This document shows positions 3,670 to 62,897 of a DNA stretch of 64,000 nt, in pieces. How positions within the stretch are numbered: position 1 is the stretch's first letter; every line of letters begins with the position of its first letter. The stretch is taken from assembly GCA_026645935.1 (NCBI GenBank), contig JAPKMP010000004.1, forward strand, positions 44,047 through 108,046, given 5' to 3'. Below the pieces are notes generated by a model. The model made no database searches. It was not told the origin of the DNA and saw only the letters and a list, made by a program, of their open reading frames with translations. Source of the DNA: Candidatus Villigracilaceae bacterium (GTDB lineage Bacteria; Chloroflexota; Anaerolineae; Anaerolineales; Villigracilaceae). A program made the translations under genes and the position numbers.

Positions 3670-5118
3670 CTAGAATGGTCCATATTGAATGGCGACGCCG
3701 ATGGCAAGGAACATCAGCGAAGCAAGAATGACCCAGACCCACAGACCCATGACCCATCTCAGCCATTTTGGATAGGTCACAGCTGTCAGACCGAGACAGA
3801 TTAAAAGCACCGCGCTGGTGGGATAGGCGAGGTTCGAAAAGCCATCACCGAAGACGTAAGCAAGGACGGCCGTCTGACGCGTGACTCCGACCAGGTCTGC
3901 GAGAGGGACGAGGATGGGCATCAACAAAAAGGCTTTTGCCGAGCCGCTCGAGACAAAGAACTCAATGACAAGGGTGAGTCCGTAGATCAGGATCGCCGCT
4001 GTGAACGGGTTTGAGCCTTGAAATGCATGCGCTGCGTTATAAAGGATCGTGTCTAGGATTCCGCCCGACGCAATGATGTACTTGACGCTTGCCGCCATGA
4101 GGATCAACGGGATGGCGGGAGCGATTCCCGCCAAGCCTTCGCCTGCCGCCTTCCATGCGGCTTTTCCCACGCCGGAAATGAGTCCCGAGCCGATGCCCGC
4201 GATCAGAAACAGCAAACCGACAATTGGCAATGCCAGGTCGCTGATGACCGGGATGAATGGACCTGCAAATAGCGTCACGAAGATCGACGCGACACACACC
4301 AACAGAAAAATAATCGCAGGTGTGGTGCGCGGGTTTTCATGTGAAATCGCGTCAGCCGCAAAATGAGTGTACTTTGCGCGGGTGGCTTGTTCCTCTTCGT
4401 ATACAGGGGAGGCTTTGGCATTCGCCTCCACTTTGCGGGCATGGCGGGTGAGGAAGACAGCCAGCATTGCGTAGAAGAATATAAAGATGACGATACGATA
4501 ACCCGACCCCGAAAAGGCTGGCAGTTTGGCGATTCCCTGCGCCACGCCGATGGTGAAGGGGTTGGTGATGGCGGCGGAGAATCCCATGTTCGTCGCAAGA
4601 ATGGACATCCCCAGCCCCGTCAGTGTATCCCATCCGAGCGAGTACGCAAGCGCGATCATCAATGGAACGAGCGGCACGACCTCCTCGAAGATGCCGAAAA
4701 ATGCGCCGAGCGCCATATAGAAAAAGGTAATGACCAGCAACAAAAAATACTTCTGATTTTCGAACCGGCGCACGATACGCGCCAGCGCCGCCTTGAGGAT
4801 TCCGCTTTTATCCATGACGGCGAAGGCAATGCCGACCATCAGAATAAAAACCGTGATGACGATCACGGTCAAACCATCTGGACCGGTCACCAATTCGAGC
4901 GGGGCGATGAACCAGCGCCAGATGGGATAGTCCGGTTTCTCCGTAAATTCGAACGAGTCCGGGACGATGATTTCGCGCCCGTCCGCTTCCATCCGCTGAA
5001 ATTGGCCGGCTGGAACGACGAGTGTGAGAATTCCGGCGGCGATCATCAACGCCAGGAGGATGACCACCGATTGAATGAACGCCTTGCGGCTGATCTGCGC
5101 GCCTGACTTTTCTTCCAT
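3670..5118 (-). CDS. YfcC-family (DcuC-like) anion/amino-acid transporter
   Basis: Polytopic membrane ORF. The N-terminus MEEKSGAQISRKAFIQSVVILLALMIAAGILT is typical of YfcC proteins. I chose ATG 5118 because AAGGAG sits 8 nt upstream. The track start is 5136. Confidence 0.7.
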   Translation of the reverse strand: MEEKSGAQISRKAFIQSVVILLALMIAAGILTLVVPAGQFQRMEADGREIIVPDSFEFTEKPDYPIWRWFIAPLELVTGPDGLTVIVITVFILMVGIAFAVMDKSGILKAALARIVRRFENQKYFLLLVITFFYMALGAFFGIFEEVVPLVPLMIALAYSLGWDTLTGLGMSILATNMGFSAAITNPFTIGVAQGIAKLPAFSGSGYRIVIFIFFYAMLAVFLTRHARKVEANAKASPVYEEEQATRAKYTHFAADAISHENPRTTPAIIFLLVCVASIFVTLFAGPFIPVISDLALPIVGLLFLIAGIGSGLISGVGKAAWKAAGEGLAGIAPAIPLILMAASVKYIIASGGILDTILYNAAHAFQGSNPFTAAILIYGLTLVIEFFVSSGSAKAFLLMPILVPLADLVGVTRQTAVLAYVFGDGFSNLAYPTSAVLLICLGLTAVTYPKWLRWVMGLWVWVILASLMFLAIGVAIQYGPF

Positions 5119-5140
5119 AATCGATTCTCCTTTCATCCCT

Positions 5141-5536
5141 TTATGCGAGCGAGTTTATATAATCCAGCACAGACTTCGCTTCGTCGCCGCCCGCCTCGGC
5201 ATGGGCGATGAGCGGGATCCCATGCGGTCCCGGCGTTTTGAGCGCGTCGGGATAAGCAGTGAGTGCGGCTTTGACCACTTCCAACCTTCCAAGCATGGCG
5301 GCGGCGAAGATATCGAGCCGTGCGCCGTGTTCGAGAAGATAATTGGCGATTTTTTTATCGCCCATGTGGGATGCCGCGCCGAGCGCTGTTTCAAAATCGC
5401 CGCCGCCCCAATCCCAGGTCGCGTTGACGAGGGCGGGCTGTGCTTCGAGCATCTCCTTCACACGGGCAAAATTCCCATGTGCAACGCCTACAAATTCCTC
5501 CACAAGTTTCGATTCTAAAGCCGGTTTATTTTCCAT
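5141..5536 (-). CDS. ankyrin-repeat protein
   Basis: 131 aa with tandem ankyrin-like repeats (TALGAASHMGDKKIANYLLEHGARLD; AAAMLGRLEVVKAAL). Confidence 0.7.
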   Translation of the reverse strand: MENKPALESKLVEEFVGVAHGNFARVKEMLEAQPALVNATWDWGGGDFETALGAASHMGDKKIANYLLEHGARLDIFAAAMLGRLEVVKAALTAYPDALKTPGPHGIPLIAHAEAGGDEAKSVLDYINSLA

Positions 5537-5567
5537 GCGAATTCTCCATTAATAAAGATTGATCAAG

Positions 5568-5735
5568 TCACTTTCTGCGCGGTCTCAACCATCTTCCGCC
5601 CAGGACAAGCGAGATCAAAACAAATGCAACTGCCGCCCACGAGAAGATGGTGTTGTCGCTGGCGATGCCGATGACGAGGAAGATCATCCCGAGGATCAGC
5701 AGATAGCCGGATACCTTGCGTTTATTGATGTTCAT
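5568..5735 (-). CDS. small hydrophobic protein (55 aa), hypothetical
   Basis: Own translation: MNINKRKVSGYLLILGMIFLVIGIASDNTIFSWAAVAFVLISLVLGGRWLRPRRK. It has two hydrophobic helices and an AAGGA about 12 nt upstream. It is below the track's size cutoff. Confidence 0.35.
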   Translation of the reverse strand: MNINKRKVSGYLLILGMIFLVIGIASDNTIFSWAAVAFVLISLVLGGRWLRPRRK

Positions 5736-5761
5736 TCCGGTCGAATTCCTTGATAATTCTA

Positions 5762-7138
5762 TTATTGGTAAACCTTCACTTCGGAGTACGGGCTTGGGTT
5801 ATCAAACAAGCCTGAAGGGTTATCTCTCAAAGTCAACTCGAAGAAATCGATCAGGTAATTGTTCACGATCTCGGTCACGCGCTTTCCATTCAAAGGACCT
5901 TTAAGACCCAGTTGCGGCGCGATGGGTGAGAAGAGCGGCAGGTCGCTGAAATCGTAATGCCTCGTGCCGTCGATGACAATGACGCCGAGATTATTTTGAT
6001 TATGGGGATTGAACTCGCGAAAGAGGCGGTTATTTTTGCTGTCGGTTATATCCGCCCAAGCCTGCGAAAACATAAAGAAGGACGGCATGGGCAAACCGCT
6101 TTCGATGACTTCGGCGGAGACAGGACGCATGAACGGGTCCATGCCGAGGACGGATCGACAGCGCGAATCGATTCCGCAGAACTGGATCGCCGCGCCTCCA
6201 CCCGTCGAATGGCCGTATGCGCCGACCCGGGCTGAGTCCACGCTGGAGGCGAATGGGTTGCTGTCATCTGCAGACAAGATCAAATCCAGGGTGTGACTCA
6301 TATCGCCAGCCCATTGACCCGCAAGAATGCGCGCAACCTCTTCGTAGTTCGGGTCGTCTGCATCTGAGGGTAGGGCGTTCGGGTTGTTTGGCGCAATCGA
6401 CCCATCGGGGAAGACCGTGACGACCGCCCCATACGTGTGTTGAATTCCGATCACGATGTAGCCGTGACTGGCGAGTTCCAATGCCTGACCGGCGTTCTGC
6501 GCGTTGAATCCGTTCCAGCCGTGCGAGAACAATATGACAGGAAATTTTTCGGCGGAAGCTGCAACGTCCGCGTTCTTGTATGCGGGGATTTGCGCGAGTG
6601 CGAGATGATCGAGAAAGAAGGAGGGTAGATCGATGTATGTGGCAATGGCGGGAGCAAAGATATCGGCGCGTTCCATCCAGGAAGCGCGATCATCCGTCGC
6701 TTTGACGTCGGCGGGATACCAGACTTGAATCATGTATCGCCGCGGCTCGTCTTTGCCGGAGTAAAGTTCCCTGCGCGATTCATCCACCATTTCGAGGATC
6801 CGCGTTCCGACTTGAAAGGGTCCGCTTGGGGCGGGGATGCGGGGAACCGGCAGCAGAATGGGTAAAGCGGTCGAAACAGCGACCAGGACCAACGTCAGGT
6901 AGGAGGCGGTGGATTTCCAATCGCTTGTTCCGAAGATTTTTGTCAACGCGCTGATGGCAAGCAGGGATGCCAGCGCATAGAGCGGAATCATCTGCCAGCG
7001 GTAGCCTTCGACGGCGAAATGAATCAGCGTGACGAGAAGAGCCAGCGCGGGCAGGAGTCGAACGGCGAGGGGGCGCGGATGACTCCATGCAAGATACAGT
7101 GTCAAAAAAGACGGGATGAGAATTTCGAGGGGGCGCAT
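5762..7138 (-). CDS. membrane-anchored alpha/beta hydrolase (PAF-acetylhydrolase/lipase-like)
   Basis: 458 aa with about 4 N-terminal TM helices, then a hydrolase fold with the nucleophile elbow GHSTGG. Confidence 0.6.
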   Translation of the reverse strand: MRPLEILIPSFLTLYLAWSHPRPLAVRLLPALALLVTLIHFAVEGYRWQMIPLYALASLLAISALTKIFGTSDWKSTASYLTLVLVAVSTALPILLPVPRIPAPSGPFQVGTRILEMVDESRRELYSGKDEPRRYMIQVWYPADVKATDDRASWMERADIFAPAIATYIDLPSFFLDHLALAQIPAYKNADVAASAEKFPVILFSHGWNGFNAQNAGQALELASHGYIVIGIQHTYGAVVTVFPDGSIAPNNPNALPSDADDPNYEEVARILAGQWAGDMSHTLDLILSADDSNPFASSVDSARVGAYGHSTGGGAAIQFCGIDSRCRSVLGMDPFMRPVSAEVIESGLPMPSFFMFSQAWADITDSKNNRLFREFNPHNQNNLGVIVIDGTRHYDFSDLPLFSPIAPQLGLKGPLNGKRVTEIVNNYLIDFFELTLRDNPSGLFDNPSPYSEVKVYQ

Positions 7139-8131: not shown

Positions 8132-8470
8132 TCAACTCCCCCACCATTGTAACAAGCCAAAGGAGAATTCACCTGCCTCCTCGTTCATACCCCGTTCCAC
8201 TCGTCCTGTTTGGACGCTGGCGGCAAGTTGCGACAGGATCTGTGGCGAGGCAAAACCATAGATCAACGCATCTTTGGCTGTTTCTGCGCTCAGGATCCAG
8301 GCGGTCAACCCGCCTACACCTACAAGCAGAAGTGTCCCCAGCCAGAAATTCAACTTTCTCAGATAATTTGGAAGGCGAATCTTGCGCCTGTTTCGGATGA
8401 TGCGCAGGACATCCGGGAGCAGACCACCCAGACAGCCAAACAGGAAAAGGGGTAAATCAAATGCAGGCAT
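8132..8470 (-). CDS. small two-TM membrane protein, hypothetical (third gene of the CHAT module)
   Basis: 112 aa with two hydrophobic helices separated by a basic loop (RIIRNRRKIRLPNYLRK). It starts 21 nt after the lipoprotein gene. Confidence 0.55.
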   Translation of the reverse strand: MPAFDLPLFLFGCLGGLLPDVLRIIRNRRKIRLPNYLRKLNFWLGTLLLVGVGGLTAWILSAETAKDALIYGFASPQILSQLAASVQTGRVERGMNEEAGEFSFGLLQWWGS

Positions 8471-8491
8471 GGTTCCTCCGTGAATCGTCGA

Positions 8492-9688
8492 TTAGTATCC
8501 GCTCAATACGAGGATGGGTAGGTTCGTTGCTTCCAGTTCGGCAAAAACCGCCTCTGCGTTGTCCGGGTTGAACGATTGGATATTGACCACAAACCTCTGG
8601 TAAGCCCTCAACTCATCTGCAATGGCAAAGGCAAGATCTGCAAGGCCGGGGATGCTCTCGTCATATACGAGAAAGATTTCCAGTTCGGTCGGATAGCCAG
8701 CCTCATCCAATAGCCTCCTCGCATTTTCCGTATCATAAGGGATCGAGCGCAAATCCAATGTCTCCCCATGTGCTTCGAATGCGCTGGGCATGGGAACATC
8801 AGGGAAGATTTGCCCCAACTTCACCCAATCGATAAAGTTAATGGCTGCTTCTGTAACGCGGAAATCCTCTGGCTGATCGGTTAGCCAGCGAAGACCCAAC
8901 ACAATGGGTTCAGGCAATGGGACCATCGGCAAGCCCTGGCTACGCAAAATCAGGTTGGCGCTCTGGATTTGCCGCACCTGGTCCATTGACTCGATGGGAC
9001 CAATCATCTGTTCAAAATCAACTTCCACGCCCGGAGGAAAACCAAAGAAACCCTCTGCTTGTTCGCGGAACTCGTTCGTCACCGCATAAGCGGCCAGGCC
9101 GGGATGGACTTCGAACACCTGGTCGGGCTGGTCAGTGGGTGTCACCTCTGCCACTCCTTCAGAACTGAGAACAACAGCCACTTCCAATTCACGATACTCG
9201 ATAATCGTAACCATAGTTCCCTTGAAGACGACGCTGGCCGGCAAGGTCACAGCCCGAATGCCGCAGTTGTTCAATAGCCAGGTGGAAGCGTTTGTGCAAC
9301 CTTGTCCCGTTGTACCCTTTGGGCAGGTCGTGATCGCTTCGCTTAGAACGCCTGCGGAACTTTGTTGAAATACATAAACGGTGCAGGTATTGCTGGGATA
9401 ATCCTTCCTCATCTTACCCTGACCATTTGAATCAGTAGTGACATAACCGTTGACCACGATCTTTTTCCAGGTATTGGTCAAAAGATCCACCTGCGATGTA
9501 GAAATCGTCGAGCCCCACACTTTGTTGTACAAACCGTATCGCTGCGCCTCCCATCCTGTTTTGGTGACCTGCACACCGGGCTGGGGAGCCGGACCGCACC
9601 CACCCGTCAGAGCAAAGATGACGATCAACATCAGCCAGAGAATTGCCCGGTGTAGATCGAAATCGCGCCGTTGAATTTGATTTTTCAT
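8492..9688 (-). CDS. lipoprotein, hypothetical, with a C-terminal segment resembling family-5 solute-binding proteins
   Basis: 398 aa with a signal peptide and lipobox LTGGC. The C-terminal NARRLLDEAGYPTELEIFLVYDES...IADELRAYQRFVVNIQSF resembles an SBP_bac_5 segment. Confidence 0.55.
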   Translation of the reverse strand: MKNQIQRRDFDLHRAILWLMLIVIFALTGGCGPAPQPGVQVTKTGWEAQRYGLYNKVWGSTISTSQVDLLTNTWKKIVVNGYVTTDSNGQGKMRKDYPSNTCTVYVFQQSSAGVLSEAITTCPKGTTGQGCTNASTWLLNNCGIRAVTLPASVVFKGTMVTIIEYRELEVAVVLSSEGVAEVTPTDQPDQVFEVHPGLAAYAVTNEFREQAEGFFGFPPGVEVDFEQMIGPIESMDQVRQIQSANLILRSQGLPMVPLPEPIVLGLRWLTDQPEDFRVTEAAINFIDWVKLGQIFPDVPMPSAFEAHGETLDLRSIPYDTENARRLLDEAGYPTELEIFLVYDESIPGLADLAFAIADELRAYQRFVVNIQSFNPDNAEAVFAELEATNLPILVLSGY

Positions 9689-9744
9689 AATCAGGACTCC
9701 TTTCTCAATCCTTTATTACGAAAACATGCGCCTCAAAATCCGCC

Positions 9745-12384
9745 TCAGCCTGCCAGTCCCAAACGGGTCATTAACTTTCTCCACGCCGCTCCCAATCCTG
9801 TTTGTGGGAAGTGAAGTCCCACTGTGATTCCCACAACCAGCACGACCCCAACCAGCGCGGCGTCAAGTATGCTCCACCATTGTTCGAAGCAATTGACGAA
9901 TAAACCTGCCGAGGCGGACCCATCGAAACAGGCTTTGCCGGTTTCAATGGGAATGTTTTGATCGAAGGCAGCTTGCAAAACGGGATACAAGCTGTATTTA
10001 TTACTGATGGCCTCGCCTGGTTCGATGACGGAGGAAGCCAGCCACTGCGCGTTATCCAGGATGTAGGTTCCATCCCGTCCGGTCATCGCCTCGACCAGCA
10101 CTGGAGCCTGGATCAGTGCCAGCAAAACCGCCGTCAACATCAATCGCCTTCCCCAATTTAATTTGCCCAGCCTCCAACCAGCCTGCGGTTGATCCATCAG
10201 ACCGAGGTTTAATCCCAGTCCGGCAAGAAATGCCGCCGCGAGGAATCGCAGGAAAGTGTCAGCGCTCAAGCCAATTCCATTCAGCCAGGCTACAAATCCA
10301 TTGGCGAGGCAAAAGCCAAGCGCGCCAAGCAGAATGGAAAGCCCTCTGGATGGGTGGATTGAAGCGGCGGAGTGTTCCTGAAAATCCAGCAGGCGTAAAG
10401 GAACGGCCAAAACCATGCCATACACCAACCCCAGCCCGATGATGAATCCCCAATACGAATTGATCGCAAATTCGGTTCCCATTGGCTGGGCGTTGAAGAT
10501 GGCAAGAAATGCGCGGTAAATCGCCAAAGCCAGGCCTGCCCCGATTGCCCCACCGAAGGTCCAACGGTTAATCCGCGTACGATTGCGATGGATATGCTTC
10601 CGCGCCCGCCACCACCAGACTCCCGCCCGATCCGGGTATTGATCCAATTTCTGTGGCAGGTGTTTCGCAAACTCTGCATCGGCTTCTGCCAACGCCCCCA
10701 ATAGCATGGCTCGGCGCTGGCGTCGGAAGGCATTGTTTTTGAGTTCGAGAAGCGCCTCTTGAATTTTCGAAAAGACGATATCCGGTTGCACCGCGAGTAA
10801 TGCTAATGCGGCTGTCTGACTCGTTGACGAATTCGAATGGCCTGCCGCTATCCACGCCAGAGGGTTGATTTCATTCTTCGGCAATGGGTTGTCGGATAAA
10901 AAATCCAGTCCCAATGATTTTTCCGCCAGCCCGTTCTCCTCATCAGGTTCAAGGAATGACATTTTCTGAATCGATTCCAGCCATTTCAAACCCACCCTGC
11001 GAAGTTGCCGCACCCAATGCGCAGTCTCCTGATCAGTTTCGATGGCGGAATGGAGCAGGAGAACGGCATCCAGCGGGCCAAGGCTCAAAGAGTCACCCCC
11101 CAGTTTCAAAGTCTGTAATTGAAGCGGGTTGGCCGGGGCTTTCATCTGTACCCATCGCATCAAAACTTCGCTCAAGGCGGTATCCCTTTCGGATATTTTT
11201 TCCGCTTCCAGCCGCGCCTGTTCATCGGTTACTGGCGGGAAAATATTTCCGCCCGAATTCCGCAGGTAAAGCACTGGCGCGCCCCAATCCCGTTGCCTTG
11301 GGTCTTCGCGATGGATGGCCTTGCGGGCCTGCGTGACTGCTTCGTCAATGGTCAGCCCAGCGACGAGATATTCGTACAGTTTGGTGGCGAACAATTTTGT
11401 GAGATCGTCATAAATCGAATATTGCATTGCAACAACGGCGGGAATTCCACCGCGTAACAAAGCCATTGCGACACTGCTCCATTGCAGGAAGCGATCGCGT
11501 TCGCCTGACTCGCAGGCATCCAGCACGACCAAACGAATGTGACCCTCTGCCAGCAATCCGCTTAGGATTTCCGCTTGAACTTCCTCCGCCTTGTTATTCT
11601 CATCGGCAAGGATCAATGCTCCGTGCCCCTGTCCTTGGTTGCCGCCGTCCCTGAAAATTCCGTGACCGCTGAAATGGAATACATCTGCAGAATCTCGCAG
11701 GGCTTTCTGAATGGTATCCTGAGTGACTCCCAGTTCATCGTTTTCCAAATCAAAATCGGGGTGATACTCGGCTTTGACGCCATTGATCTCGCGCAGTTTC
11801 CCCTTAATGGCAGTTTGCTCATTTTCCAGGTCGAGTCTAGGGTATTTCTCGTAAGGTTCCGGGCTGGCCATAGCGATAATCACTCGTCGATTGGGGCTGG
11901 CACGAAAAGACGCGGCTGGAACCGAGATCGCCTCATGCCGGACGATGGAGATGCGAAAATCCAAAGCCCAATGGTCCTCAGGGACGATTTCGCCATCGTG
12001 TAGTTTTACCAGAGCATATTCCCAGGGCAGGAAAGCAAGTTCCTGCAGGAGCCGCAGGCGTATTCGCAATCCGTCGCCTTCCTGCAACCGGGCGAGACTG
12101 CTTTGATATAACTGGCGCGCATAGGGAGGCAGAATGATTTCTCCCAACCGCTGGGCGAGTTTCTCGAAGTCTTTGCGGGTGATTTGCCTGTCTGCTAAAT
12201 TCTTTCGCCACTTTTCGAGTTGATCCCAATCCCCGATGGCAACTTCCTCGTCGTGTTCCCCTTCTCCCACTGGCGAGTCGAAAATCCGCAAAGAGAATTT
12301 ACCCGGCCTTCCTCTTGTGTCTGGTTTGCTGTCGTTGATGGAGTCGGTGTAGATGACGAAGTCGCGATAGTTGCGGATGGACAT
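9745..12384 (-). CDS. CHAT-domain (caspase-like) protease fused to a HEAT-like region and a C-terminal polytopic membrane domain
   Basis: 879 aa. The catalytic dyad context is VFHFSGHG and RLVVLDACESGE. The middle is helical and HEAT-like. The last ~300 aa have about 6-7 TM helices and one ~70-aa Cys-containing loop. Confidence 0.8.
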   Translation of the reverse strand: MSIRNYRDFVIYTDSINDSKPDTRGRPGKFSLRIFDSPVGEGEHDEEVAIGDWDQLEKWRKNLADRQITRKDFEKLAQRLGEIILPPYARQLYQSSLARLQEGDGLRIRLRLLQELAFLPWEYALVKLHDGEIVPEDHWALDFRISIVRHEAISVPAASFRASPNRRVIIAMASPEPYEKYPRLDLENEQTAIKGKLREINGVKAEYHPDFDLENDELGVTQDTIQKALRDSADVFHFSGHGIFRDGGNQGQGHGALILADENNKAEEVQAEILSGLLAEGHIRLVVLDACESGERDRFLQWSSVAMALLRGGIPAVVAMQYSIYDDLTKLFATKLYEYLVAGLTIDEAVTQARKAIHREDPRQRDWGAPVLYLRNSGGNIFPPVTDEQARLEAEKISERDTALSEVLMRWVQMKAPANPLQLQTLKLGGDSLSLGPLDAVLLLHSAIETDQETAHWVRQLRRVGLKWLESIQKMSFLEPDEENGLAEKSLGLDFLSDNPLPKNEINPLAWIAAGHSNSSTSQTAALALLAVQPDIVFSKIQEALLELKNNAFRRQRRAMLLGALAEADAEFAKHLPQKLDQYPDRAGVWWWRARKHIHRNRTRINRWTFGGAIGAGLALAIYRAFLAIFNAQPMGTEFAINSYWGFIIGLGLVYGMVLAVPLRLLDFQEHSAASIHPSRGLSILLGALGFCLANGFVAWLNGIGLSADTFLRFLAAAFLAGLGLNLGLMDQPQAGWRLGKLNWGRRLMLTAVLLALIQAPVLVEAMTGRDGTYILDNAQWLASSVIEPGEAISNKYSLYPVLQAAFDQNIPIETGKACFDGSASAGLFVNCFEQWWSILDAALVGVVLVVGITVGLHFPQTGLGAAWRKLMTRLGLAG

Positions 12385-12716
12385 TTTGGCGCGATCCTGC
12401 TCCGCGCTGTAGCGATCAATAACGACCGTTTGAAGGGGAGATGTGCGGCTTAACTCTAAAATCCGACTGACCGTTTTCCCTGTAAGTACTATACATCAAG
12501 TTAAAAGACATTTCAATACTGTATTCTGGACATGTCGGTACCATAAACTTTTGGTTGGTTAATTTTCCCACTTTGGAGTTTATTTTTATGCTTTATTTGC
12601 ACGTTTTCTCTCACAAGGACCCTGCGGTCGATGCAGAAAACATGCTGAATATCATGGTTTTCTCCCACTATTTTAAAACCCCCCCCGCCCAGGGTACAGA
12701 GTCTCAATATGGGATT

Positions 12717-13274
12717 TCAACCTGCCGGGACTTGCAAAATCCCAACCGCCGCCATCACGCCCATTGCAGACATGAGCACGATGAGGAAGAAAAAGATTCC
12801 CAACACCCAGTTCAGCCATTTCTTCTCGGGGTGGTTGACCCAGTAGTAGAGCAAGCCTGCAAACAGGAACGCCTGCGGGACGATCTCGACATAGCTGAGG
12901 ATGGAGGTTGGGTAATTGGTGTAGAGAATGCCTTCGATGGAGCCGGGAGCCGCGCCAAAGGTGGAGAGGATTCCGAGGGCGGTCAGGACCCAGAACAGGA
13001 TCAGCCAGCCGTTTTTTCTCCCAAAGATGATCTCCCTCAGCGGATAGAACGCCAGCGCAAAGACGATGCCGCGTATCCATTGCAGACCGGGTCCCGCCGC
13101 CACCCAGGGACTGTCGGTGGGGCGCATGTAGTTCTCCAACGCGCCGGTGACGAAAACGTCTTCATAGTTCAGGAAGTTGAAGGCGAGGATGCCCATCAGG
13201 AAATATGTCAGCGTATGAGCCACGCTGGATTTGAGGATGAGACTTAGCAAGGAAGGTTGATTGGTGGTGTTCAT
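12717..13274 (-). CDS. polytopic membrane protein, hypothetical
   Basis: 185 aa with about 5 hydrophobic helices. I recognise no motif. Confidence 0.5.
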   Translation of the reverse strand: MNTTNQPSLLSLILKSSVAHTLTYFLMGILAFNFLNYEDVFVTGALENYMRPTDSPWVAAGPGLQWIRGIVFALAFYPLREIIFGRKNGWLILFWVLTALGILSTFGAAPGSIEGILYTNYPTSILSYVEIVPQAFLFAGLLYYWVNHPEKKWLNWVLGIFFFLIVLMSAMGVMAAVGILQVPAG

Positions 13275-15078: not shown

Positions 15079-16302
15079 CTACTGCGCCACTTTTGCAGAT
15101 AGGACCAGCCACACTTCCATCTCTCCCTTGCCCTTTACACTGACAGCGCCGCGAGGCTCGCACACAAACTCCTCCTTGATCAGCTCATAGGTGGCTTGCG
15201 TGATCTGTACAGCGCCTCCCAAGCCATGCGACTCCATCCGGCTGGCAATATTGACCGCATCTCCCCATACGTCGTAGACAAATTTTCGACGACCGATCAC
15301 ACCCGCGATCATGGAACCTGAATTGATGCCAATGCGAAAACTAAGGCGCCGACCGTTGCGAAACGTATGAGTGGAAATATAGTCGCGCATCTCCATCGCC
15401 ATGTACACCAGAGCTTGCGCATGATCGAGACGTCCGCGCGGCACCCCGGAAGCGACCATATAACTATCCCCGATCGTTCTGATCTTTTCCACGCCGTATT
15501 TATCTAAGAGCGAATCGAAGAAAGAAAAGACCTCATTAAGCAGTTCGACCATTTCCACCGGCGGCAATTGCTCGGAAAGCGGAGTGAAGCCCACCATGTC
15601 TGCAAATAGAACGCTGGCTTCGTTAAAATGATCTGCGATCGTGCGGCTCTCATTTTTAAGAATGGCGGCGATCTCTTTCGGCAGGATGTTCAACAATAGC
15701 GTTTCGGACTTCTGTTGAAATGTATTTTTCTGACCGACAAAGTAAAAAACCATCATGAAAACCAACGAGCCGACCGCGAGAAGGTTCAGGGAAAAGAAGA
15801 AGATCACCAATGCAGTGGATAGGTTGTTGGTAAAACGTGCGTAGGGTTGTAAAAACCCGCTGAGAACAACAAGGATTGCAAAGGCAAGAAACCAGCGCGG
15901 CGCGCGGCGCGGTTCATCGAAGAGTAATGCGCCGAGGGGGCAGATCAGCGACCACAAAATGACGGCGCTGCCATTAACGAAACCGCCCAATGCTACCATC
16001 AGAAAAAAGGGCAGGAGCAGGATCAACGCCAGTTGACTGAAACGAAAAAAGCGATACTGGCGCGTCCGCCCAAAGTGAACGATGCTAATGAGGGAGATTA
16101 AGGAATAAGAGAGCGGGATCGCCCCGGCGAGCGGCTCGTCTGTGAAGACATATATCAAGCCCCATGCGATCCCCGCGACCATAAAGGGAATGGCGCAAAC
16201 GACCAATAGCGATTTTTGCAGGCGGATTTCGTCCTCGTCATCCGGGTCCGAGCCGATCCGTGCTATGGATGGAAGCATCTGTGCCATTATTTTCTGAATC
16301 AT
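15079..16302 (-). CDS. class III adenylate/guanylate cyclase with an N-terminal 6-TM domain
   Basis: 407 aa. Cyclase motifs are VLFADMVGFT, KIRTIGDSYMVASG and VWGDAVNIASRMES. Confidence 0.85.
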   Translation of the reverse strand: MIQKIMAQMLPSIARIGSDPDDEDEIRLQKSLLVVCAIPFMVAGIAWGLIYVFTDEPLAGAIPLSYSLISLISIVHFGRTRQYRFFRFSQLALILLLPFFLMVALGGFVNGSAVILWSLICPLGALLFDEPRRAPRWFLAFAILVVLSGFLQPYARFTNNLSTALVIFFFSLNLLAVGSLVFMMVFYFVGQKNTFQQKSETLLLNILPKEIAAILKNESRTIADHFNEASVLFADMVGFTPLSEQLPPVEMVELLNEVFSFFDSLLDKYGVEKIRTIGDSYMVASGVPRGRLDHAQALVYMAMEMRDYISTHTFRNGRRLSFRIGINSGSMIAGVIGRRKFVYDVWGDAVNIASRMESHGLGGAVQITQATYELIKEEFVCEPRGAVSVKGKGEMEVWLVLSAKVAQ

Positions 16303-17038: not shown

Positions 17039-20000
17039 TTATTGTCCCTCCACAATCCGTATCTCTTCCTCACTCAACCCATACAACTCATAAACCAGAC
17101 GATCAATCGCCGCATCCGTGGACTCGATCTCGCGCTTGACCATTTCCTGTTCTTGCGGAGTTCTTGGGGCTTGCTTGTGTAATGCCAACATGCGCTCGAC
17201 CAGCGAGACCAGTTTGTCGTGCCGGGCTTTGTCGGCGGAGTCGTCGAAGTTGATTGGACGGATGGGAAAGGGAGATAAGTAATTGGTTTTGAACCTGAAA
17301 TATCCACCACGCAAGGTTGTGCCTGTATTAGATAGATACCACCAAAATGTTTTTGAGTTCATAACACCAAGAATGTACAACTTGTTTATGGGAAAGTTCT
17401 TTCTAACCACTAGACTGTAAACTTGAGTATTATGATACATTCCTTTAGGTGCTAAGGACATATTGCCACCTAAACTAATTTCTGGTGTAACAATCCGTTC
17501 AATCTCAAATACATTCATATCCCTGCTTCTATGACATGAATACCAATACTTAGGGTTGGTCTTTTGTCTTACGCGAATTTCAGTTAATTCTTTTTGATAT
17601 TCCTTAAGATATGCATAGCCTTTAGGAAATCTGCTTTTTAGTTCAGTCTCTTCTATTATCTTTGTTTTACCATCCGCTAACTTGTAAGGATAAATACAAT
17701 AATATGAGTTTGTAGGTTCTGAGTATCGATTTACATCCTCGCCTGTCAAAAAAGGTTTCACTAGACTGGATTCGATCTCTACACTTTGTTCTGCTCTTTC
17801 GGAGAATAATTTATAAATACCACCCTTCAACTCTTCCTCGAACTTTAGAACGTGAATATTATCAATCCCAGATTGTACGCCTACCAATATTTCTTCACAT
17901 ACATCGCCAAGTGTAAGAGGTTGTTTTGACAAGGTTGCTAGAATAGAAGGAACATTTTTCTTTGCTAAAGTCCACGGGGTATCAGAAAAATCTTTTAAGC
18001 TGTAAGTTGTAAAGTCATCTTCTGTTAATTTGAACAAGGTTGGTTGAATGTTAATAGCTGGAATGTTTTCGAACTCGTGATATTTGAATTGCTCTAAAGA
18101 CTCATTCCGTAAAAACAACAATCCTGTGTAAGTTGAAGCCTGGTCGAAAACTAAATTATTCCCGAAACTGATAAGTTTTTCGATTGCTAGTTTCTTGGTA
18201 AGAAAGCCTCGTAGACCTGACCCAAAATCAGAATTGATAAATTTATGAGGACAAATAAAACCTAATCGTCCATTTTGTTGTAAGAGTTTATAGGCTTTCT
18301 CAATGAAAAGTAGATATAAGTCAAATCGTTTGACTGCACTTTCATATTTTGAAGAAAAATATTCTATTTGATCGTTGTAGTTTTCCTGTAACCCCTGAAT
18401 TCTCAGGTACGGTGGATTTCCAATCACAGCATCGAAGCCGCCCTGAATGAACACCTGTGGAAAACCAGCTTTCCAGTTGAAGGCGTTCACGCGGTAGCGT
18501 TCTTCTTCGTCCACCAACATGGTCAATTGCCGCCCTTCGTAGTAATCATTGCCGATCAACGAGTTGCCGCATTTGATGTTCTTGCCCAAGTCTGGCAAGA
18601 CTCGCTCTTGGAACAACGCCAACTGCGAGCCGATGGTCTCGCGGCTTTCGCCTTCCAAGACCTTCAATAATAACGAGAGTTTGGTCACTTCCACGGCTTG
18701 CGGGTCAATGTCTACTCCGTAGATGTTGTTAAGCAGGATGTCTTTTTTCTTCGAGGTCGTTAGCCTATAGCCGTCTTTGGTTTGGAAGATAACCGGCTTC
18801 TTGCCCGTCGCCCATTTCTCAGGGTCGTGTTCCATGTACCATTTCAAATGCCAGTCCAGCAAATACTGATACGCCCCAAGCGGGAAGGTCCCAGACCCAC
18901 AAGCCGGGTCGAGCACGCGGATTTTTTCGGCTTCCTTGGGGGTCTTGCCTTCCAGCAACCTGCCTACCGTGTTCTCGACAATATACTCCACGATATAGGT
19001 CGGCGTGTAATACACCCCGCCCGCCTTGCGCACTTCGGGCTTTTCCTCCACCTTGGCGCGGTGTCCCGCCGTCAGGCGAATCACCTTGCCGAGGAAGCGT
19101 TCATACACCTGCCCTAAAATATCCGCCGGAATTTCGCGGAAGACATACGGGCTTTCAGGGTAATACAAATTCTTGATGATGTCCTTCAACGGCTTATCAT
19201 CGATCTTGAGGGTCAGGGTCAGCGTATCGGTCGGGCTGGAGGCATCTTTCTCTTCCGAAAAATGGAACAAGCCGGAGTTATATCTAGCGTCGGCTCGTTT
19301 GAATAACAGGCAGAGATTTTCATAAATATCCCCGCTTTCACCGATCTCTTTCAATTGTTCGTCCCGTTCCACGCCCCGGTCTTCGCAGATGCGCAGAAAG
19401 ACGATGCGGTCGATGATCATCTGCACGGCGTAGTTCAACTCGCGCACGTTCAGGCTTTCATTGCGTAAGGCAATATTATTTGCGAGCAGGTCGCGCCAGC
19501 GTTCGATCTCCGCCAGAAAGGCGTCGTCCACTTCGGCAGTGCCTTTTTTGAGCTTTGCGCTTTCAGCGAAGGCATCGAAGGAGCCCCGTAATACAGCATC
19601 TCGCGAGAAGATGCTTGCGATCTCGTCCCATTTTTCAACATAATCTTTATAGGAATACAATTTGACACGCCCCACTGAAGCCTTGTCTTTTTTATCGGGC
19701 TTGGCGCGGCAATCGTAAATGGCCAACTCTTCGAAATCCGAAAGGATACTGAGCGGCAGTTTTGCGCTCCAGGCATAACGGCGTAATTGAAAGGCGGGGT
19801 GAATATCCGTCTCGATCTTGACGGCGGGTTTCTTGGCTTCTAAAAAGAACTTTCTCTGCCCGCCGATGCGAAAGGCATAATCGGGCGCTTTATTTTCCCC
19901 TTCGATCTCCAGGCTATCTTCATGCACCACATCCTTGTACATCTCAGCATAGCCCTGTTTATTGAACACATCCCAACCGAGCGCCTCAAAGAACGGATCG

Positions 20001-20107
20001 AGGAACTCGCGCCGGAGTTGCGTCTCGTTGTACCTGCCGGAACGGTAGGTTTCGCGGTGTTCATCAAATCTTTGCACAAGTTGGCGGATGATGTCTGGGG
20101 CAGTCAT
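17039..20107 (-). CDS. Type IIG restriction-modification enzyme (fused PD-ExK nuclease, N6-adenine methyltransferase and specificity domain; MmeI/Eco57I-like)
   Basis: 1022 aa. The N-terminal nuclease context is PDYAF...FFLEAKKP. SAM motif I is VLDPACGSGTFP and motif IV is VIGNPPY. It has a long C-terminal TRD and the tail IDRLVYELYGLSEEEIRIVEGQ. Confidence 0.85.
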   Translation of the reverse strand: MTAPDIIRQLVQRFDEHRETYRSGRYNETQLRREFLDPFFEALGWDVFNKQGYAEMYKDVVHEDSLEIEGENKAPDYAFRIGGQRKFFLEAKKPAVKIETDIHPAFQLRRYAWSAKLPLSILSDFEELAIYDCRAKPDKKDKASVGRVKLYSYKDYVEKWDEIASIFSRDAVLRGSFDAFAESAKLKKGTAEVDDAFLAEIERWRDLLANNIALRNESLNVRELNYAVQMIIDRIVFLRICEDRGVERDEQLKEIGESGDIYENLCLLFKRADARYNSGLFHFSEEKDASSPTDTLTLTLKIDDKPLKDIIKNLYYPESPYVFREIPADILGQVYERFLGKVIRLTAGHRAKVEEKPEVRKAGGVYYTPTYIVEYIVENTVGRLLEGKTPKEAEKIRVLDPACGSGTFPLGAYQYLLDWHLKWYMEHDPEKWATGKKPVIFQTKDGYRLTTSKKKDILLNNIYGVDIDPQAVEVTKLSLLLKVLEGESRETIGSQLALFQERVLPDLGKNIKCGNSLIGNDYYEGRQLTMLVDEEERYRVNAFNWKAGFPQVFIQGGFDAVIGNPPYLRIQGLQENYNDQIEYFSSKYESAVKRFDLYLLFIEKAYKLLQQNGRLGFICPHKFINSDFGSGLRGFLTKKLAIEKLISFGNNLVFDQASTYTGLLFLRNESLEQFKYHEFENIPAINIQPTLFKLTEDDFTTYSLKDFSDTPWTLAKKNVPSILATLSKQPLTLGDVCEEILVGVQSGIDNIHVLKFEEELKGGIYKLFSERAEQSVEIESSLVKPFLTGEDVNRYSEPTNSYYCIYPYKLADGKTKIIEETELKSRFPKGYAYLKEYQKELTEIRVRQKTNPKYWYSCHRSRDMNVFEIERIVTPEISLGGNMSLAPKGMYHNTQVYSLVVRKNFPINKLYILGVMNSKTFWWYLSNTGTTLRGGYFRFKTNYLSPFPIRPINFDDSADKARHDKLVSLVERMLALHKQAPRTPQEQEMVKREIESTDAAIDRLVYELYGLSEEEIRIVEGQ

Positions 20108-62417: not shown

Positions 62418-62504
62418 CTAAAAGGGGGCTGTGATATGCTTAAATGAAAACACCTTCTTTGCCAGTAAATAAGATACAACTATCAAATAACAAAGGAGAT
62501 ACTT

Positions 62505-62831
62505 ATGGCTCTTACAATCGAAACCCTCATGTCCAAAATGCCTGGCGCGTTCATTCCTGAGAAGGCGGCGGGGCTGGATGCCGTGATCCAGTTCAAGTTC
62601 ACCGGCGCCGAGGCGGGAGAATGGCATGCGACAATCAAGGATGGCAAGTGCGAAGTTGCAAAGGGGATGCACGCCTCCCCAAAGATGACCCTGACCGCCG
62701 ATTCCGCCGATTACATCAAGATCTTCACCGGCGAGATCGATGGGATGAAAGCGTTCATGGAAGGCAAGCTCAAATTGGCAGGCGACCTGAACCTGGCAAT
62801 GAAATTGACGCAGATGTTCAAGATCAGGTAA
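62505..62831 (+). CDS. SCP2 sterol/lipid-carrier domain protein
   Basis: 108 aa with DAVIQFKFTG...WHATIKDGKCEV...MTLTADSADYIKIFTGEIDGMKAFMEGKLKLAGDLNLAMKL. Confidence 0.8.
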   Translation: MALTIETLMSKMPGAFIPEKAAGLDAVIQFKFTGAEAGEWHATIKDGKCEVAKGMHASPKMTLTADSADYIKIFTGEIDGMKAFMEGKLKLAGDLNLAMKLTQMFKIR

Positions 62832-62848
62832 GAAGCGTGTAAAATTCA

Positions 62849-62873
62849 ACCCGTCATCGTCGGGATGACGGGT
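62849..62873 (+). terminator. intrinsic terminator after the SCP2 gene
   Basis: acccgtcatc-gtcgg-gatgacgggt is a 10-bp stem followed by TTATTGTTTT. Confidence 0.7.
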
Positions 62874-62897
62874 TTATTGTTTTAAGAGGAGATAATT

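What the first reader, a model, noticed from the sequence alone, without database searches (positions are those of the whole stretch)
8132..12384. Three-gene module: CHAT caspase-like protease fused to a polytopic membrane domain, with an SBP-derived lipoprotein and a small two-TM protein
Seen in the sequence: three co-oriented genes have 56-nt and 21-nt gaps. A visibly AT-rich promoter region lies upstream; line 12541-12600 counts 18/60 G+C by hand, while most of the window is above one half. Gene 1 has an N-terminal cytoplasmic CHAT domain with an intact His/Cys dyad (FHFSGHG, VLDACESGE). It continues with a HEAT-like helical region and about 6-7 TM helices with one ~70-aa Cys-containing outside loop. 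Gene 2 is a lipoprotein (LTGGC) whose C-terminus looks like a fragment of a family-5 peptide-binding protein. Gene 3 is a 112-aa two-TM protein with a strongly basic loop. The module lies about 4.7 kb from a Type IIG RM enzyme on the same strand. Established knowledge: CHAT proteases act as effectors in several prokaryotic conflict and cell-death systems, and as orthocaspases in multicellular bacteria. Inference: an extracytoplasmic sensor (lipoprotein plus outside loop) may gate a cytoplasmic caspase-like protease. This would be a transmembrane signalling or abortive-infection-type module. I do not recognise this architecture as a described system.
Basis: partly seen in the sequence, partly recalled or inferred. 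Interest (0 to 1): 0.7.

Follow-up and report, generated by a model that had tools for sequence, protein, structure and literature searches.

The report
Membrane caspase-like protease three-gene module
A conserved three-gene operon in an Anaerolineales bacterium encodes a membrane-embedded caspase-like protease, a surface lipoprotein and a tiny membrane protein; that tiny protein belongs to a larger uncharacterised family often found beside caspase-like proteases and anti-phage genes, which suggests an undescribed cell-death or defence switch.

Summary
Three co-oriented minus-strand genes (gaps 56 and 21 nt) encode:
- g1: an 879-aa protein with an N-terminal CHAT protease, a HEAT-like helical region, six TM helices and a 67-aa two-Cys outer loop. 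His241 and Cys291 are invariant in 53 homologues.
- g2: a probable lipoprotein whose C-terminus is a fragment of a family-5 solute-binding protein.
- g3: a 112-aa protein with two TM helices.

The order g1-g2-g3 is kept in at least 8 other loci, down to 34% g1 identity. All named records are Anaerolineales, and the module is sporadic.

The new result concerns g3. It belongs to an unannotated family of about 490 clusters. Members also sit beside three other caspase-superfamily architectures, and beside patatin, SIR2, TIR and kinase genes of the defence type. In one g1 clade that lacks g3, a patatin phospholipase occupies its slot in one locus. Other g1 relatives carry an inserted STAND NTPase, or a neighbouring cytoplasmic C11 peptidase.

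My best reading (about 0.45) is an envelope-sensing protease and membrane-effector conflict module. It is analogous to the EACC1-caspase system but is not demonstrably a member of it. A HetF-like developmental role is the main rival. No function has been shown.

The parts
12488..12516 (-). Promoter-like site (TTGAAA-17-TATAGT, 10/12) inside a 31% GC stretch, about 100 nt upstream of g1
   Evidence: This is a consensus match only, and such sites are no more frequent here than in shuffled sequence.
9745..12384 (-). g1: 879-aa CHAT protease, HEAT-like helical region and six-TM membrane domain
11269..12159 (-). CHAT (caspase-fold) domain of g1, residues 76-372, predicted cytoplasmic
   Evidence: Pfam PF12770, E 2.9e-28. 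Foldseek hits to SAVED-CHAT 8tl0, Csx29 8eex and separase 5fby.
11662..11664 (-). Codon of catalytic His241 (FHFSGHG)
   Evidence: Invariant in 53 homologues; coordinates
11512..11514 (-). Codon of catalytic Cys291 (VLDACESGE)
   Evidence: Invariant in 53 homologues; coordinates
10585..11223 (-). All-helical HEAT-like linker region of g1, residues 388-600, ending in a basic stretch (7 K/R in residues 586-606) just before TM1
   Evidence: AF2 secondary structure; HEAT_2 hits in 4 of 14 family members; charge count
9763..10581 (-). Six-TM membrane domain of g1, residues 602-874
   Evidence: No Pfam or PDB sequence relative.
9889..10089 (-). Predicted extracytoplasmic loop of g1, residues 766-832, with Cys819 and Cys832. 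It is long and Cys-containing only in g1 homologues that are followed by g3.
8492..9688 (-). g2: 398-aa probable lipoprotein. It has a signal peptide and Cys31, an N-terminal domain with four Cys in conserved motifs (Cys142 invariant in nine homologues), and a C-terminal fragment of a family-5 SBP (about residues 250-398, nt 8495-8941).
8132..8470 (-). g3: 112-aa two-TM protein. TM1 is residues 5-22 (GCLGGLLPD), the basic loop 23-40, TM2 41-62 (VGGLTAW), an amphipathic region follows at 63-86, then a variable linker and a conserved C-terminal L..WW motif.

Best explanation
The three genes form one operon. It encodes a membrane-embedded, caspase-like proteolytic switch of the 'biological conflict' (regulated cell-death or defence) type.

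Shown:
- g1 has an intact CHAT protease at an N-terminus that lacks a signal peptide. A helical HEAT-like region joins it to a six-TM domain with one structured outer loop.
- g2 is a probable lipoprotein with a remnant of a family-5 SBP.
- g3 is a very well conserved two-TM protein.
- The three genes are inherited together.

Inferred:
- g2 and the outer loop of g1 detect an envelope-level cue.
- The TM and HEAT-like part transmits this cue to the cytoplasmic CHAT domain.
- The activated protease cleaves a dedicated partner.

The most likely partner is g3. Its family is repeatedly paired with caspase-superfamily proteases, and its slot is taken by a patatin phospholipase in one locus of the g1 clade that lacks it. 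Processing of g3 would convert it into a membrane-disrupting oligomer. Processing in its conserved basic cytoplasmic loop is plausible. This would parallel the proteolytic licensing shown for EACC1, Pepco and bacterial gasdermins.
For: Operon and conservation. The gaps are 56 and 21 nt. The same gene order is found in L001, L003, L007, L008, L009, L011, L056 and L057 at 34-74% g1 identity.

Active protease. The Pfam CHAT match, the invariant His241/Cys291 and the fold matches to SAVED-CHAT, Csx29 and separase all agree.

Topology. There are six TM helices, basic flanks on the cytoplasmic side, and a 67-aa loop with two Cys.

Link between g3 and proteases outside the g1 family:
- g3 overlaps the start of a soluble 1035-aa CHAT protein in L014. 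The same arrangement is seen in L023, L028 and L035.
- CHAT proteins of about 430 aa lie next to g3 in L043, L042 and L033.
- A caspase-HEAT protein precedes g3 in L012. Its best NCBIfam match is 'caspase, EACC1-associated type' (E 4e-13).

Other effector-type neighbours of g3:
- patatin in L016 and L021;
- a SIR2 with a full-length PADLOC match (E 1e-112), a TIR-TM protein, a PD-T4-6-like kinase and a Mokosh-like helicase.

Slot replacement. L055 reads C11, a 381-aa gene, g1, g2 and then patatin, with no g3.

Conflict-system hallmarks in g1 relatives. P0069 has a STAND NTPase inserted between the CHAT and membrane parts. A cytoplasmic C11 peptidase is adjacent in 5 of 12 g1 loci.

Loop and g3. 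The long Cys-containing outer loop is present in all 8 analysed g1 proteins that are followed by g3. It is absent in the 3 that are not.

Precedent. EACC1 is cleaved by its caspase and then forms pores (bioRxiv 10.1101/2025.11.14.688446).
Against: - No function has been tested.
- The wider g3 family is not strictly linked to proteases or defence. Some members lie beside IGPS/MoaC, amine oxidase, TrkA, methyltransferase or LacI genes.
- If the basic loop of g3 is cytoplasmic, its conserved C-terminal half is outside the cell. Only the 18-residue loop would then be within reach of a cytoplasmic protease.
- The module has the same GC as the host (53%). It lies in a chromosomal position shared with close relatives near alaS, and it was not found on viral contigs or plasmids. 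It does not look like a mobile defence island.
- PADLOC recognises only the CHAT domain, weakly.
- The three g3-less g1 loci form one clade. The loop/g3 correlation may therefore reflect a single evolutionary event.
Confidence: 0.45

Rival explanations
1. The module is a HetF-like developmental or cell-envelope regulatory protease of filamentous bacteria. g1 would be a membrane-anchored CHAT protease that degrades a specific regulator, as HetF degrades PatU3 and works with the divisome. g2 and g3 would be envelope partners or anchors, and the module would have no role in conflict.
For: - The best NCBIfam match of g1 is 'cell division protein HetF' (E 3e-10).
- HetF also has an N-terminal CHAT domain followed by a membrane segment, and it acts in a filamentous bacterium (PMC8406250; PMC9457339).
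- The module has host-like GC and a syntenic chromosomal position near alaS in close relatives.
- In L056 the lipoprotein-maturation gene lgt directly follows g3.
- Some distant g3 homologues lie among housekeeping genes.
Against: - The HetF match covers only the CHAT domain, at 39 bits against a cut-off of 1200.
- HetF has one TM helix and TPRs, not six TM helices.
- The family is sporadic.
- Relatives carry STAND NTPase, patatin and C11 additions.
- g3 homologues recur beside unrelated caspase-like proteases and PADLOC-type defence genes.
Confidence: 0.25
2. g3 is the membrane sensor or anchor rather than the effector. This is the model first proposed for EACC1. g3, perhaps with g2, would sense a membrane perturbation and activate the CHAT domain. 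The protease would then act on other cytoplasmic targets, on an accessory protease such as C11 (a cascade like SAVED-CHAT to PCaspase), or on g1 itself.
For: - g3 is the most conserved component and has Gly-rich TM helices. This is the feature that led Kaur et al. to propose a sensor role for EACC1 (PMC7159879).
- The predicted topology puts its conserved C-terminal half outside the cell, next to g2 and the g1 outer loop.
- The long outer loop of g1 co-occurs with g3.
- Cytoplasmic C11 peptidases are frequent neighbours.
- The closest solved fold is SAVED-CHAT, which activates a second protease (bioRxiv 10.1101/2023.06.23.546230).
Against: - For EACC1 itself, experiments showed that it is the cleaved pore-forming effector, not the sensor.
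- Patatin, a classical effector, takes the place of g3 in L055.
- The window has no C11 gene.
- g3 homologues also lie beside soluble enzymes that seem to need no membrane sensor.
Confidence: 0.2
3. The module is a nutrient- or peptide-sensing or transport-related membrane complex. g2 would still bind a peptide-like ligand, and g1 would couple ligand sensing to proteolysis of a metabolic regulator.
For: g2 retains a region related to family-5 SBPs. Homologues of g2 in L005, L006 and L055 carry a recorded Pfam SBP_bac_5 hit.
Against: - Only about 130 of the roughly 500 residues of an SBP are recognisable.
- The N-terminal half of g2 is an unrelated Cys-containing domain.
- No ABC permease or ATPase genes belong to the module.
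- The distribution is sporadic.
Confidence: 0.07

Closest known systems
EACC1-caspase two-gene 'membrane-associated conflict system' (System 4 of Kaur, Burroughs, Iyer and Aravind 2020, PMC7159879; mechanism in Evans et al. 2025, bioRxiv 10.1101/2025.11.14.688446)
   Same: - A small (about 110-120 aa), strongly conserved, Gly-rich hydrophobic protein is paired with a protein that has an N-terminal caspase-superfamily protease.
- The C-terminal part of that protease protein is variable. It is often TM-containing and sometimes combines TM helices with an extracellular binding-protein domain.
- The system is found preferentially in multicellular or filamentous bacteria.
- The caspase next to a g3 homologue in L012 matches the 'EACC1-associated' caspase model best.
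   Different: - g3 is predicted to have two TM helices and to be all-helical. EACC1 is described as having one TM helix with alpha+beta extensions and beta-strand-mediated assembly.
- No NCBIfam, Pfam or PADLOC model links g3 to EACC1.
- g3 is the 3' gene here, not the 5' gene.
- The protease is of the CHAT type (16 bits on the EACC1-type caspase model).
- The binding-protein module is a separate lipoprotein gene.
- I could not obtain an EACC1 sequence for a direct comparison.
HetF of Anabaena (membrane-anchored CHAT protease; NCBIfam NF045509)
   Same: Both have an N-terminal CHAT domain with a His/Cys dyad followed by a membrane anchor. Both hosts are filamentous. HetF is the best-scoring NCBIfam model for g1.
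   Different: - The similarity is restricted to the CHAT domain (39 bits against a cut-off of 1200).
- HetF has one TM helix and a TPR domain.
- HetF has no g2 or g3 partners.
- HetF acts in cell division and heterocyst development, with PatU3 as its substrate.
SAVED-CHAT / PCaspase cascade and Craspase (Csx29 TPR-CHAT) of type III CRISPR systems
   Same: These are the closest solved folds to the g1 protease domain (8tl0, E 1.8e-7; 8eex). They are sensor-gated CHAT proteases that cleave dedicated partners. The frequent C11 neighbour of g1 relatives recalls the two-protease cascade.
   Different: g1 has no SAVED domain and no CRISPR or cOA context. Its presumed regulatory part is a membrane domain plus a lipoprotein.
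Bacterial gasdermin-protease and Pepco-protease modules
   Same: The logic is the same: a protease gene next to a small latent membrane-disrupting protein.
   Different: g3 has no similarity to gasdermin or Pepco. It appears to be a constitutive two-TM protein rather than a soluble precursor.
DdvA (transmembrane anti-sigma factor with a TPR-CHAT domain, PMC11506125)
   Same: It is a CHAT domain coupled to transmembrane signalling in a defence context, and it is a weak fold match (8rw5).
   Different: In DdvA the CHAT domain is periplasmic with an incomplete active site, there is a single TM helix, and the output is release of an ECF sigma factor.

Membership tests
CHAT domain / clan CD caspase-fold peptidases (Pfam PF12770) | Profile match above the curated threshold | tested here: met
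   99.6 bits against a cut-off of 24, residues 76-372
CHAT domain / clan CD caspase-fold peptidases (Pfam PF12770) | Catalytic His-Cys dyad present and conserved | tested here: met
   His241 and Cys291 are invariant in 53 homologues
CHAT domain / clan CD caspase-fold peptidases (Pfam PF12770) | Caspase/separase-type fold | tested here: met
   The AF2 model (pLDDT 87.6) gives Foldseek hits to SAVED-CHAT, Csx29, separase and caspases
CHAT domain / clan CD caspase-fold peptidases (Pfam PF12770) | Proteolytic activity | not testable with these tools
   Needs biochemistry
HetF (NCBIfam NF045509, equivalog) | Full-length match at or above the 1200-bit cut-off | tested here: not met
   39.1 bits, and only model positions 104-392 of 836 are matched
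HetF (NCBIfam NF045509, equivalog) | Architecture of CHAT, one TM helix and TPR | tested here: not met
   g1 is CHAT, a HEAT-like region and six TM helices. The HetF architecture is taken from PMC8406250.
EACC1-caspase two-gene system | A small EACC1 protein: one conserved TM helix with a Gly patch and alpha+beta extensions | tested here: inconclusive
   g3 is of similar size and has Gly patches. However, it has two predicted TM helices and an all-helical, low-confidence model, and it hits no named model. No EACC1 sequence was available for a profile comparison.
EACC1-caspase two-gene system | An adjacent protein with an N-terminal caspase-superfamily protease and a variable, often TM-containing, C-terminal part | tested here: met
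   g1; description in PMC7159879
EACC1-caspase two-gene system | The protease belongs to the 'caspase, EACC1-associated type' (NF047832, cut-off 140 bits) | tested here: not met
   g1 scores 16.3 bits. The truncated caspase next to the g3 homologue in L012 scores 49.3 bits, which is its best hit but below the cut-off.
EACC1-caspase two-gene system | The small gene lies 5' of the protease gene | tested here: not met
   In the window the order is g1-g2-g3. The 5' position is seen only in the L014-type pairs.
Family-5 solute-binding proteins (Pfam PF00496) | Profile match above threshold over a two-lobe SBP of about 500 aa | tested here: not met
   The window g2 scores 18.4 bits against 32.4 over 74 residues. 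The family profile aligns only about 130 residues to PDB SBPs. g2 is therefore derived from an SBP but is not a complete one.
Family-5 solute-binding proteins (Pfam PF00496) | Genomic association with ABC permease and ATPase genes | tested here: not met
   There are none in or next to the module
Known anti-phage systems in PADLOC-DB v2 | Component profiles of a described system | tested here: not met
   The only hit is a weak SAVED_CHAT match to the CHAT domain (E 3.8e-8). g2 and g3 have no hits.
CATRA / CATASP (caspase-TPR ternary system with a small protein; Burroughs and Aravind 2020) | Sequence membership of the small protein (CATASP) | not testable with these tools
   The paper and the sequences are not held. 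The L014-type pair of g3 and a CHAT protein with a long C-terminal region makes this comparison worth doing.

The most novel reading that the evidence does not exclude
g3 would define a new, fairly widespread family (about 490 clusters at 50% identity) of small two-TM, holin-like death effectors. Caspase-superfamily proteases would license them by cleavage in the conserved cytoplasmic loop. g1 and g2 would be the first example of an 'outside-in' immune sensor: an extracytoplasmic lipoprotein and loop detect an envelope event, such as phage adsorption or envelope damage, and switch on a cytoplasmic caspase-like protease across the membrane.
Probability: 0.2. Interest if true: 0.8.

Novelty: new variant of a known kind. 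Interest (0 to 1): 0.6.

Why it matters
Modules that pair a protease with an effector are emerging as a dominant logic of prokaryotic immunity, with clear parallels to caspase/gasdermin signalling in animals. If this reading is right, the locus adds two things.

- A new small membrane protein family, absent from Pfam, NCBIfam and PADLOC, that recurs beside at least four different caspase-superfamily architectures and beside SIR2, TIR and patatin genes.
- An architecture in which a caspase-like protease is wired directly to a polytopic membrane domain and an extracellular lipoprotein. That suggests activation by a signal from outside the cell rather than by cytoplasmic phage components.

The finding also bears on regulated cell death in filamentous, multicellular bacteria (Chloroflexota), where HetF is so far the only characterised membrane CHAT protease.

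Tried and rejected
Searches that failed or found nothing:
- The search for related loci with alignments of the g1 C-terminal region (A2, A3) failed, because no stretch was conserved enough. The single genome scan and the single metagenome scan were therefore run with g3 alignments.
- The profile search with the g1 C-terminal region returned only 10 proteins, because hydrophobic words saturated the candidate list.
- I tried to reach EACC1 sequences through supplements and through a caspase search in plasmids. I found only an unrelated Pantoea caspase next to a Ppl defence gene.
- The CATRA/CATASP paper is not held.
- There are no g1 or g3 relatives on viral contigs, and no g3 relatives on plasmids.
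- The window has no C11 peptidase.

Comparisons that gave no result:
- Neighbours of g3 with no Pfam hit (L022 485 aa, L034 347 aa, L020 381 aa) are not CHAT relatives by hhalign.
- The g3 model has no PDB fold match.
- The g1 membrane domain has no PDB sequence relative.

Ideas rejected:
- g2 as a functional ABC-transporter SBP. Only a fragment is present and there are no transporter genes.
- g3 as a SLATT, gasdermin or holin Pfam member. There are no consistent hits.
- Linkage to the RM gene as meaningful. It is not conserved.

Full report
**1. What is in the sequence**

The minus strand carries three ORFs:
- g1, 9745-12384, 879 aa;
- g2, 8492-9688, 398 aa;
- g3, 8132-8470, 112 aa.

The gaps between them are 56 and 21 nt. 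The 332-nt region upstream of g1 is 43% GC, against 53% for the window and for the module. The best sigma-70-like match in the area (TTGAAA-17-TATAGT, minus strand, 12516-12488) lies inside this stretch. Such matches are no more frequent in this region than in shuffled sequence.

Exact copies of all three proteins are on record from Anaerolineales (Chloroflexota) MAGs. There g1 is annotated only as 'CHAT domain-containing protein' and g3 as 'hypothetical protein'.

**2. g1**

*Protease domain.*
- Pfam CHAT matches residues 76-372 (E 2.9e-28).
- The motifs FHFSGHG and VLDACESGE place the dyad at His241 and Cys291. Both are invariant in an alignment of 53 full-length homologues.
- An AF2 model built on that alignment is confident (pLDDT 87.6, pTM 0.84).
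- Its best PDB fold matches are the SAVED-CHAT filament, Csx29 of Craspase, separase, caspases and, weakly, DdvA.

*Helical and membrane parts.*
- Residues 388-600 are all-helical. Some family members hit HEAT_2 (4 of 14).
- Hydropathy and the model agree on six TM helices: 602-630, 635-658, 679-701, 708-728, 741-764 and 833-857.
- The N-terminus has no signal peptide.
- The stretch before TM1 has 7 K/R and no acidic residue, and the C-terminal tail is basic.
- The likely topology is therefore protease inside the cell and loop 766-832 (Cys819, Cys832) outside.
- The membrane domain has no Pfam or PDB sequence relative.

**3. g2**

g2 starts with a signal peptide that ends in LTGGC (Cys31). This lipobox is imperfect, but homologues have canonical ones such as LLAGC, IVGC and LGAC. 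A domain follows that contains four Cys (102, 122, 131, 142) in conserved motifs; Cys142 is invariant across the nine aligned sequences.

The C-terminal third gives only a sub-threshold SBP_bac_5 hit in the window protein. A profile of nine homologues does hit many family-5 SBPs in the PDB, over about 130 residues (best 6tfq, E 3e-6). The g2 homologues in L005, L006 and L055 have recorded Pfam SBP_bac_5 hits. g2 is therefore derived from an SBP, but it is not a complete binding protein. No ABC transporter genes accompany it.

**4. g3**

g3 has two hydrophobic helices: residues 5-22 with GCLGGLLPD, and residues 41-62 with VGGLTAW. They flank a loop with 8 K/R and no acidic residue. After them come a conserved amphipathic segment (KDALIYGFASPQILSQLA), a variable linker and a conserved C-terminal L..WW motif.

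The AF2 model is all-helical but of low confidence (pLDDT 64), and it has no PDB fold match. Neither Pfam, NCBIfam nor PADLOC recognises it. Among 75 diverse relatives, only 7 weakly touch DUF4257.

**5. Conservation of the module**

The g1 family has about 75 full-length clusters (850-915 aa, 32-98% identity). All named ones are from Anaerolineae or Anaerolineales.

The order g1-g2-g3 is seen in L001, L003, L007, L008, L009, L011, L056 and L057, at 34-74% g1 identity. Four short contigs show g2-g3 with the upstream part cut off. g3 is the best conserved of the three: 46-48% identity where g2 is 26-39%.

One clade (L005, L006, L055) has g1-g2 but no g3. In that clade the outer loop of g1 is short (26-36 aa) and free of Cys. 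All eight analysed g1 proteins that are followed by g3 have a loop of 67-74 aa with 2-6 Cys. The g3-less loci form a single clade, so this is suggestive but may reflect one event.

**6. Additions and variants**

- A clostripain-type C11 peptidase without a signal peptide lies next to the module in L001, L003, L006, L011 and L055, that is in 5 of 12 g1 loci. The window has none.
- In L055 a patatin phospholipase follows g2, in the position where g3 lies elsewhere. In L021 a patatin follows g3.
- P0069 (1219 aa) is a g1 relative with an nSTAND/AAA_16 NTPase inserted between the CHAT and membrane parts.
- The flanking genes are otherwise not conserved.
- In the close relative L057 the module also lies near alaS. 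The intervening genes there include a PLD-type (DrmC-like) protein, instead of the RM enzyme, cyclase and glycosyltransferase of the window. The proximity to the RM gene is therefore not a conserved feature.

**7. The g3 family beyond g1**

An exhaustive profile search finds 489 clusters at E ≤ 1e-3 and 170 at E ≤ 1e-10. Most are 100-140 aa. A few have very long Pro- and charge-rich linkers before the terminal WW motif.

Pattern-based scans gave 8 loci in 185,579 species genomes and 32 metagenome loci. I count about 31 distinct contexts that do not involve g1. In eight of them a caspase-superfamily gene is directly adjacent:
- a soluble 1035-aa CHAT protein whose start overlaps the end of g3 (L014, a MAG labelled Spartobacteria, and L023, L028, L035);
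- CHAT proteins of about 430 aa (L043, L042, L033);
- a caspase-HEAT protein (L012), whose best NCBIfam hit is 'caspase, EACC1-associated type'.

Other neighbours are:
- patatin (L016);
- a SIR2 with a full-length PADLOC match (L019/L020, E 1e-112);
- a TIR-TM protein (L052);
- a Zn-ribbon kinase-TPR protein resembling PD-T4-6 (L026/L027);
- a Mokosh-like helicase (L044).

Several contexts look like housekeeping, however: methyltransferase, TrkA, IGPS/MoaC, amine oxidase and LacI. Elsewhere in the fetched loci, CHAT genes not adjacent to a g1 or g3 gene are rare; my local CHAT profile found one such gene and the gene calls show one more. The adjacency is therefore far above chance. It amounts to about four independent protease architectures, not eight independent events.

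**8. Comparison with known systems**

[quoted passage not shown] It pairs a small constant protein that has a Gly-rich TM segment with a protein that has an N-terminal caspase-superfamily domain. About 50 alternative C-terminal parts are known for the latter, a third of them with TM helices and some with TM helices plus an extracellular binding-protein domain (PMC7159879).

EACC1 has since been shown to be cleaved by its caspase, with the C-terminal fragment forming membrane pores (bioRxiv 10.1101/2025.11.14.688446).

g3 resembles EACC1 in size, conservation, Gly patches and partners. It differs in three ways:
- it has two predicted TM helices;
- its model is all-helical;
- no model links the two families.

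I could not obtain EACC1 or CATASP sequences, so membership is unresolved and I do not claim it.

HetF is the closest characterised membrane CHAT protease. It shares only the CHAT domain with g1 (39 bits against a cut-off of 1200) and has a different architecture.

**9. Interpretation**

*Shown:*
- a conserved operon;
- an intact protease predicted to face the cytoplasm;
- a six-TM domain with a structured outer loop;
- a lipoprotein with an SBP remnant;
- a small membrane protein whose family recurs with caspase-like proteases and defence-type genes.

*Inferred:*
- g2 and the outer loop sense an envelope cue and gate the protease.
- g3 is the protease's dedicated membrane effector, or alternatively its co-sensor.

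I give the conflict-module reading about 0.45. The HetF-like developmental reading gets 0.25, the g3-as-sensor variant 0.2, and a nutrient-sensing reading less than 0.1.

Arguments for caution:
- the composition is host-like and the position chromosomal;
- there are no phage or plasmid copies;
- part of the g3 family has mixed neighbourhoods;
- there are no functional data at all.

**10. Verdict**

The exact architecture and the g3 family appear undescribed in the libraries and literature I could search. The logic, however, is that of known protease-plus-small-effector conflict systems. I therefore rate it a new variant of a known kind, with interest 0.6.

Noticed in passing
window 17039-20107 (-): A 1022-aa Type IIG restriction-modification enzyme (HSDR_N, Eco57I/MmeI methylase and TaqI_C domains). 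Its GC is 45.6% against 53% for the window, so it looks horizontally acquired. It is absent from the corresponding position in the close relative L057.
   Followed up: partly
window 15079-16302 (-): A 407-aa protein with a hydrophobic, multi-TM N-terminal half and a class III adenylate/guanylate cyclase domain (E 3e-60). It lies between the RM gene and the module.
   Followed up: no
window 12717-13274 (-): A 185-aa polytopic membrane ORF with no Pfam hit, co-oriented and 332 nt upstream of g1. It is not conserved next to g1 in the other loci examined.
   Followed up: partly
L001 12516-13793; L003 6726-7952; L006 5441-6688; L011 ~4607-5845; L055 6473-7699: A cytoplasmic clostripain-type (Peptidase_C11) gene lies next to the g1 module in 5 of 12 g1 loci, on either side of it. 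In L006 and L055 a conserved 381-aa gene with no Pfam hit separates it from g1. This may be a second protease in a cascade. The window has no such gene.
   Followed up: partly
P0069 (1219 aa); fragments P0159, P0160: These are g1 relatives with an nSTAND1/AAA_16 NTPase inserted between the CHAT domain and the HEAT-like and six-TM part. The layout resembles an NLR.
   Followed up: partly
L055 12996-14177: A patatin-like phospholipase directly follows g2 in a g1 clade that lacks g3. Patatins also follow g3 in L016 and L021.
   Followed up: partly
g3 family profile (A8) against PDB 3jc8 PilC: The g3 profile matches both internal repeats of the type IV pilus platform protein PilC (GspF family) at equivalent positions. 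The shared pattern is the motif GE.GG.LD..L.RLA.Y followed by a TM helix, and the whole-sequence E-value is 1.8e-5. It could be remote homology or convergence of a Gly-rich helix plus a TM helix.
   Followed up: partly
L014 7893-13422: In a MAG labelled Spartobacteria, the g3 homologue and its CHAT partner lie next to a divergently oriented ECF sigma factor, a Metal_resist-domain protein and a protein with a TonB-dependent receptor Plug domain. The g3 family therefore extends outside Chloroflexota.
   Followed up: no
window 20483-23254 (+) and L057 31-2775: alaS lies near the module in both the window and the 73%-identical relative. The genes between alaS and g1 differ: RM, cyclase, GT28 and DsrE in the window, against three small ORFs and a PLDc_2 gene in L057. 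The interval behaves as a variable region.
   Followed up: partly
window 61001-63000: A second stretch of low GC (about 46%) with strong AT skew, near the end of the window. I did not examine it.
   Followed up: no
L056 13336-14082: The prolipoprotein diacylglyceryl transferase gene (lgt) directly follows g3 in one distant module. This is notable because g2 is a predicted lipoprotein.
   Followed up: no
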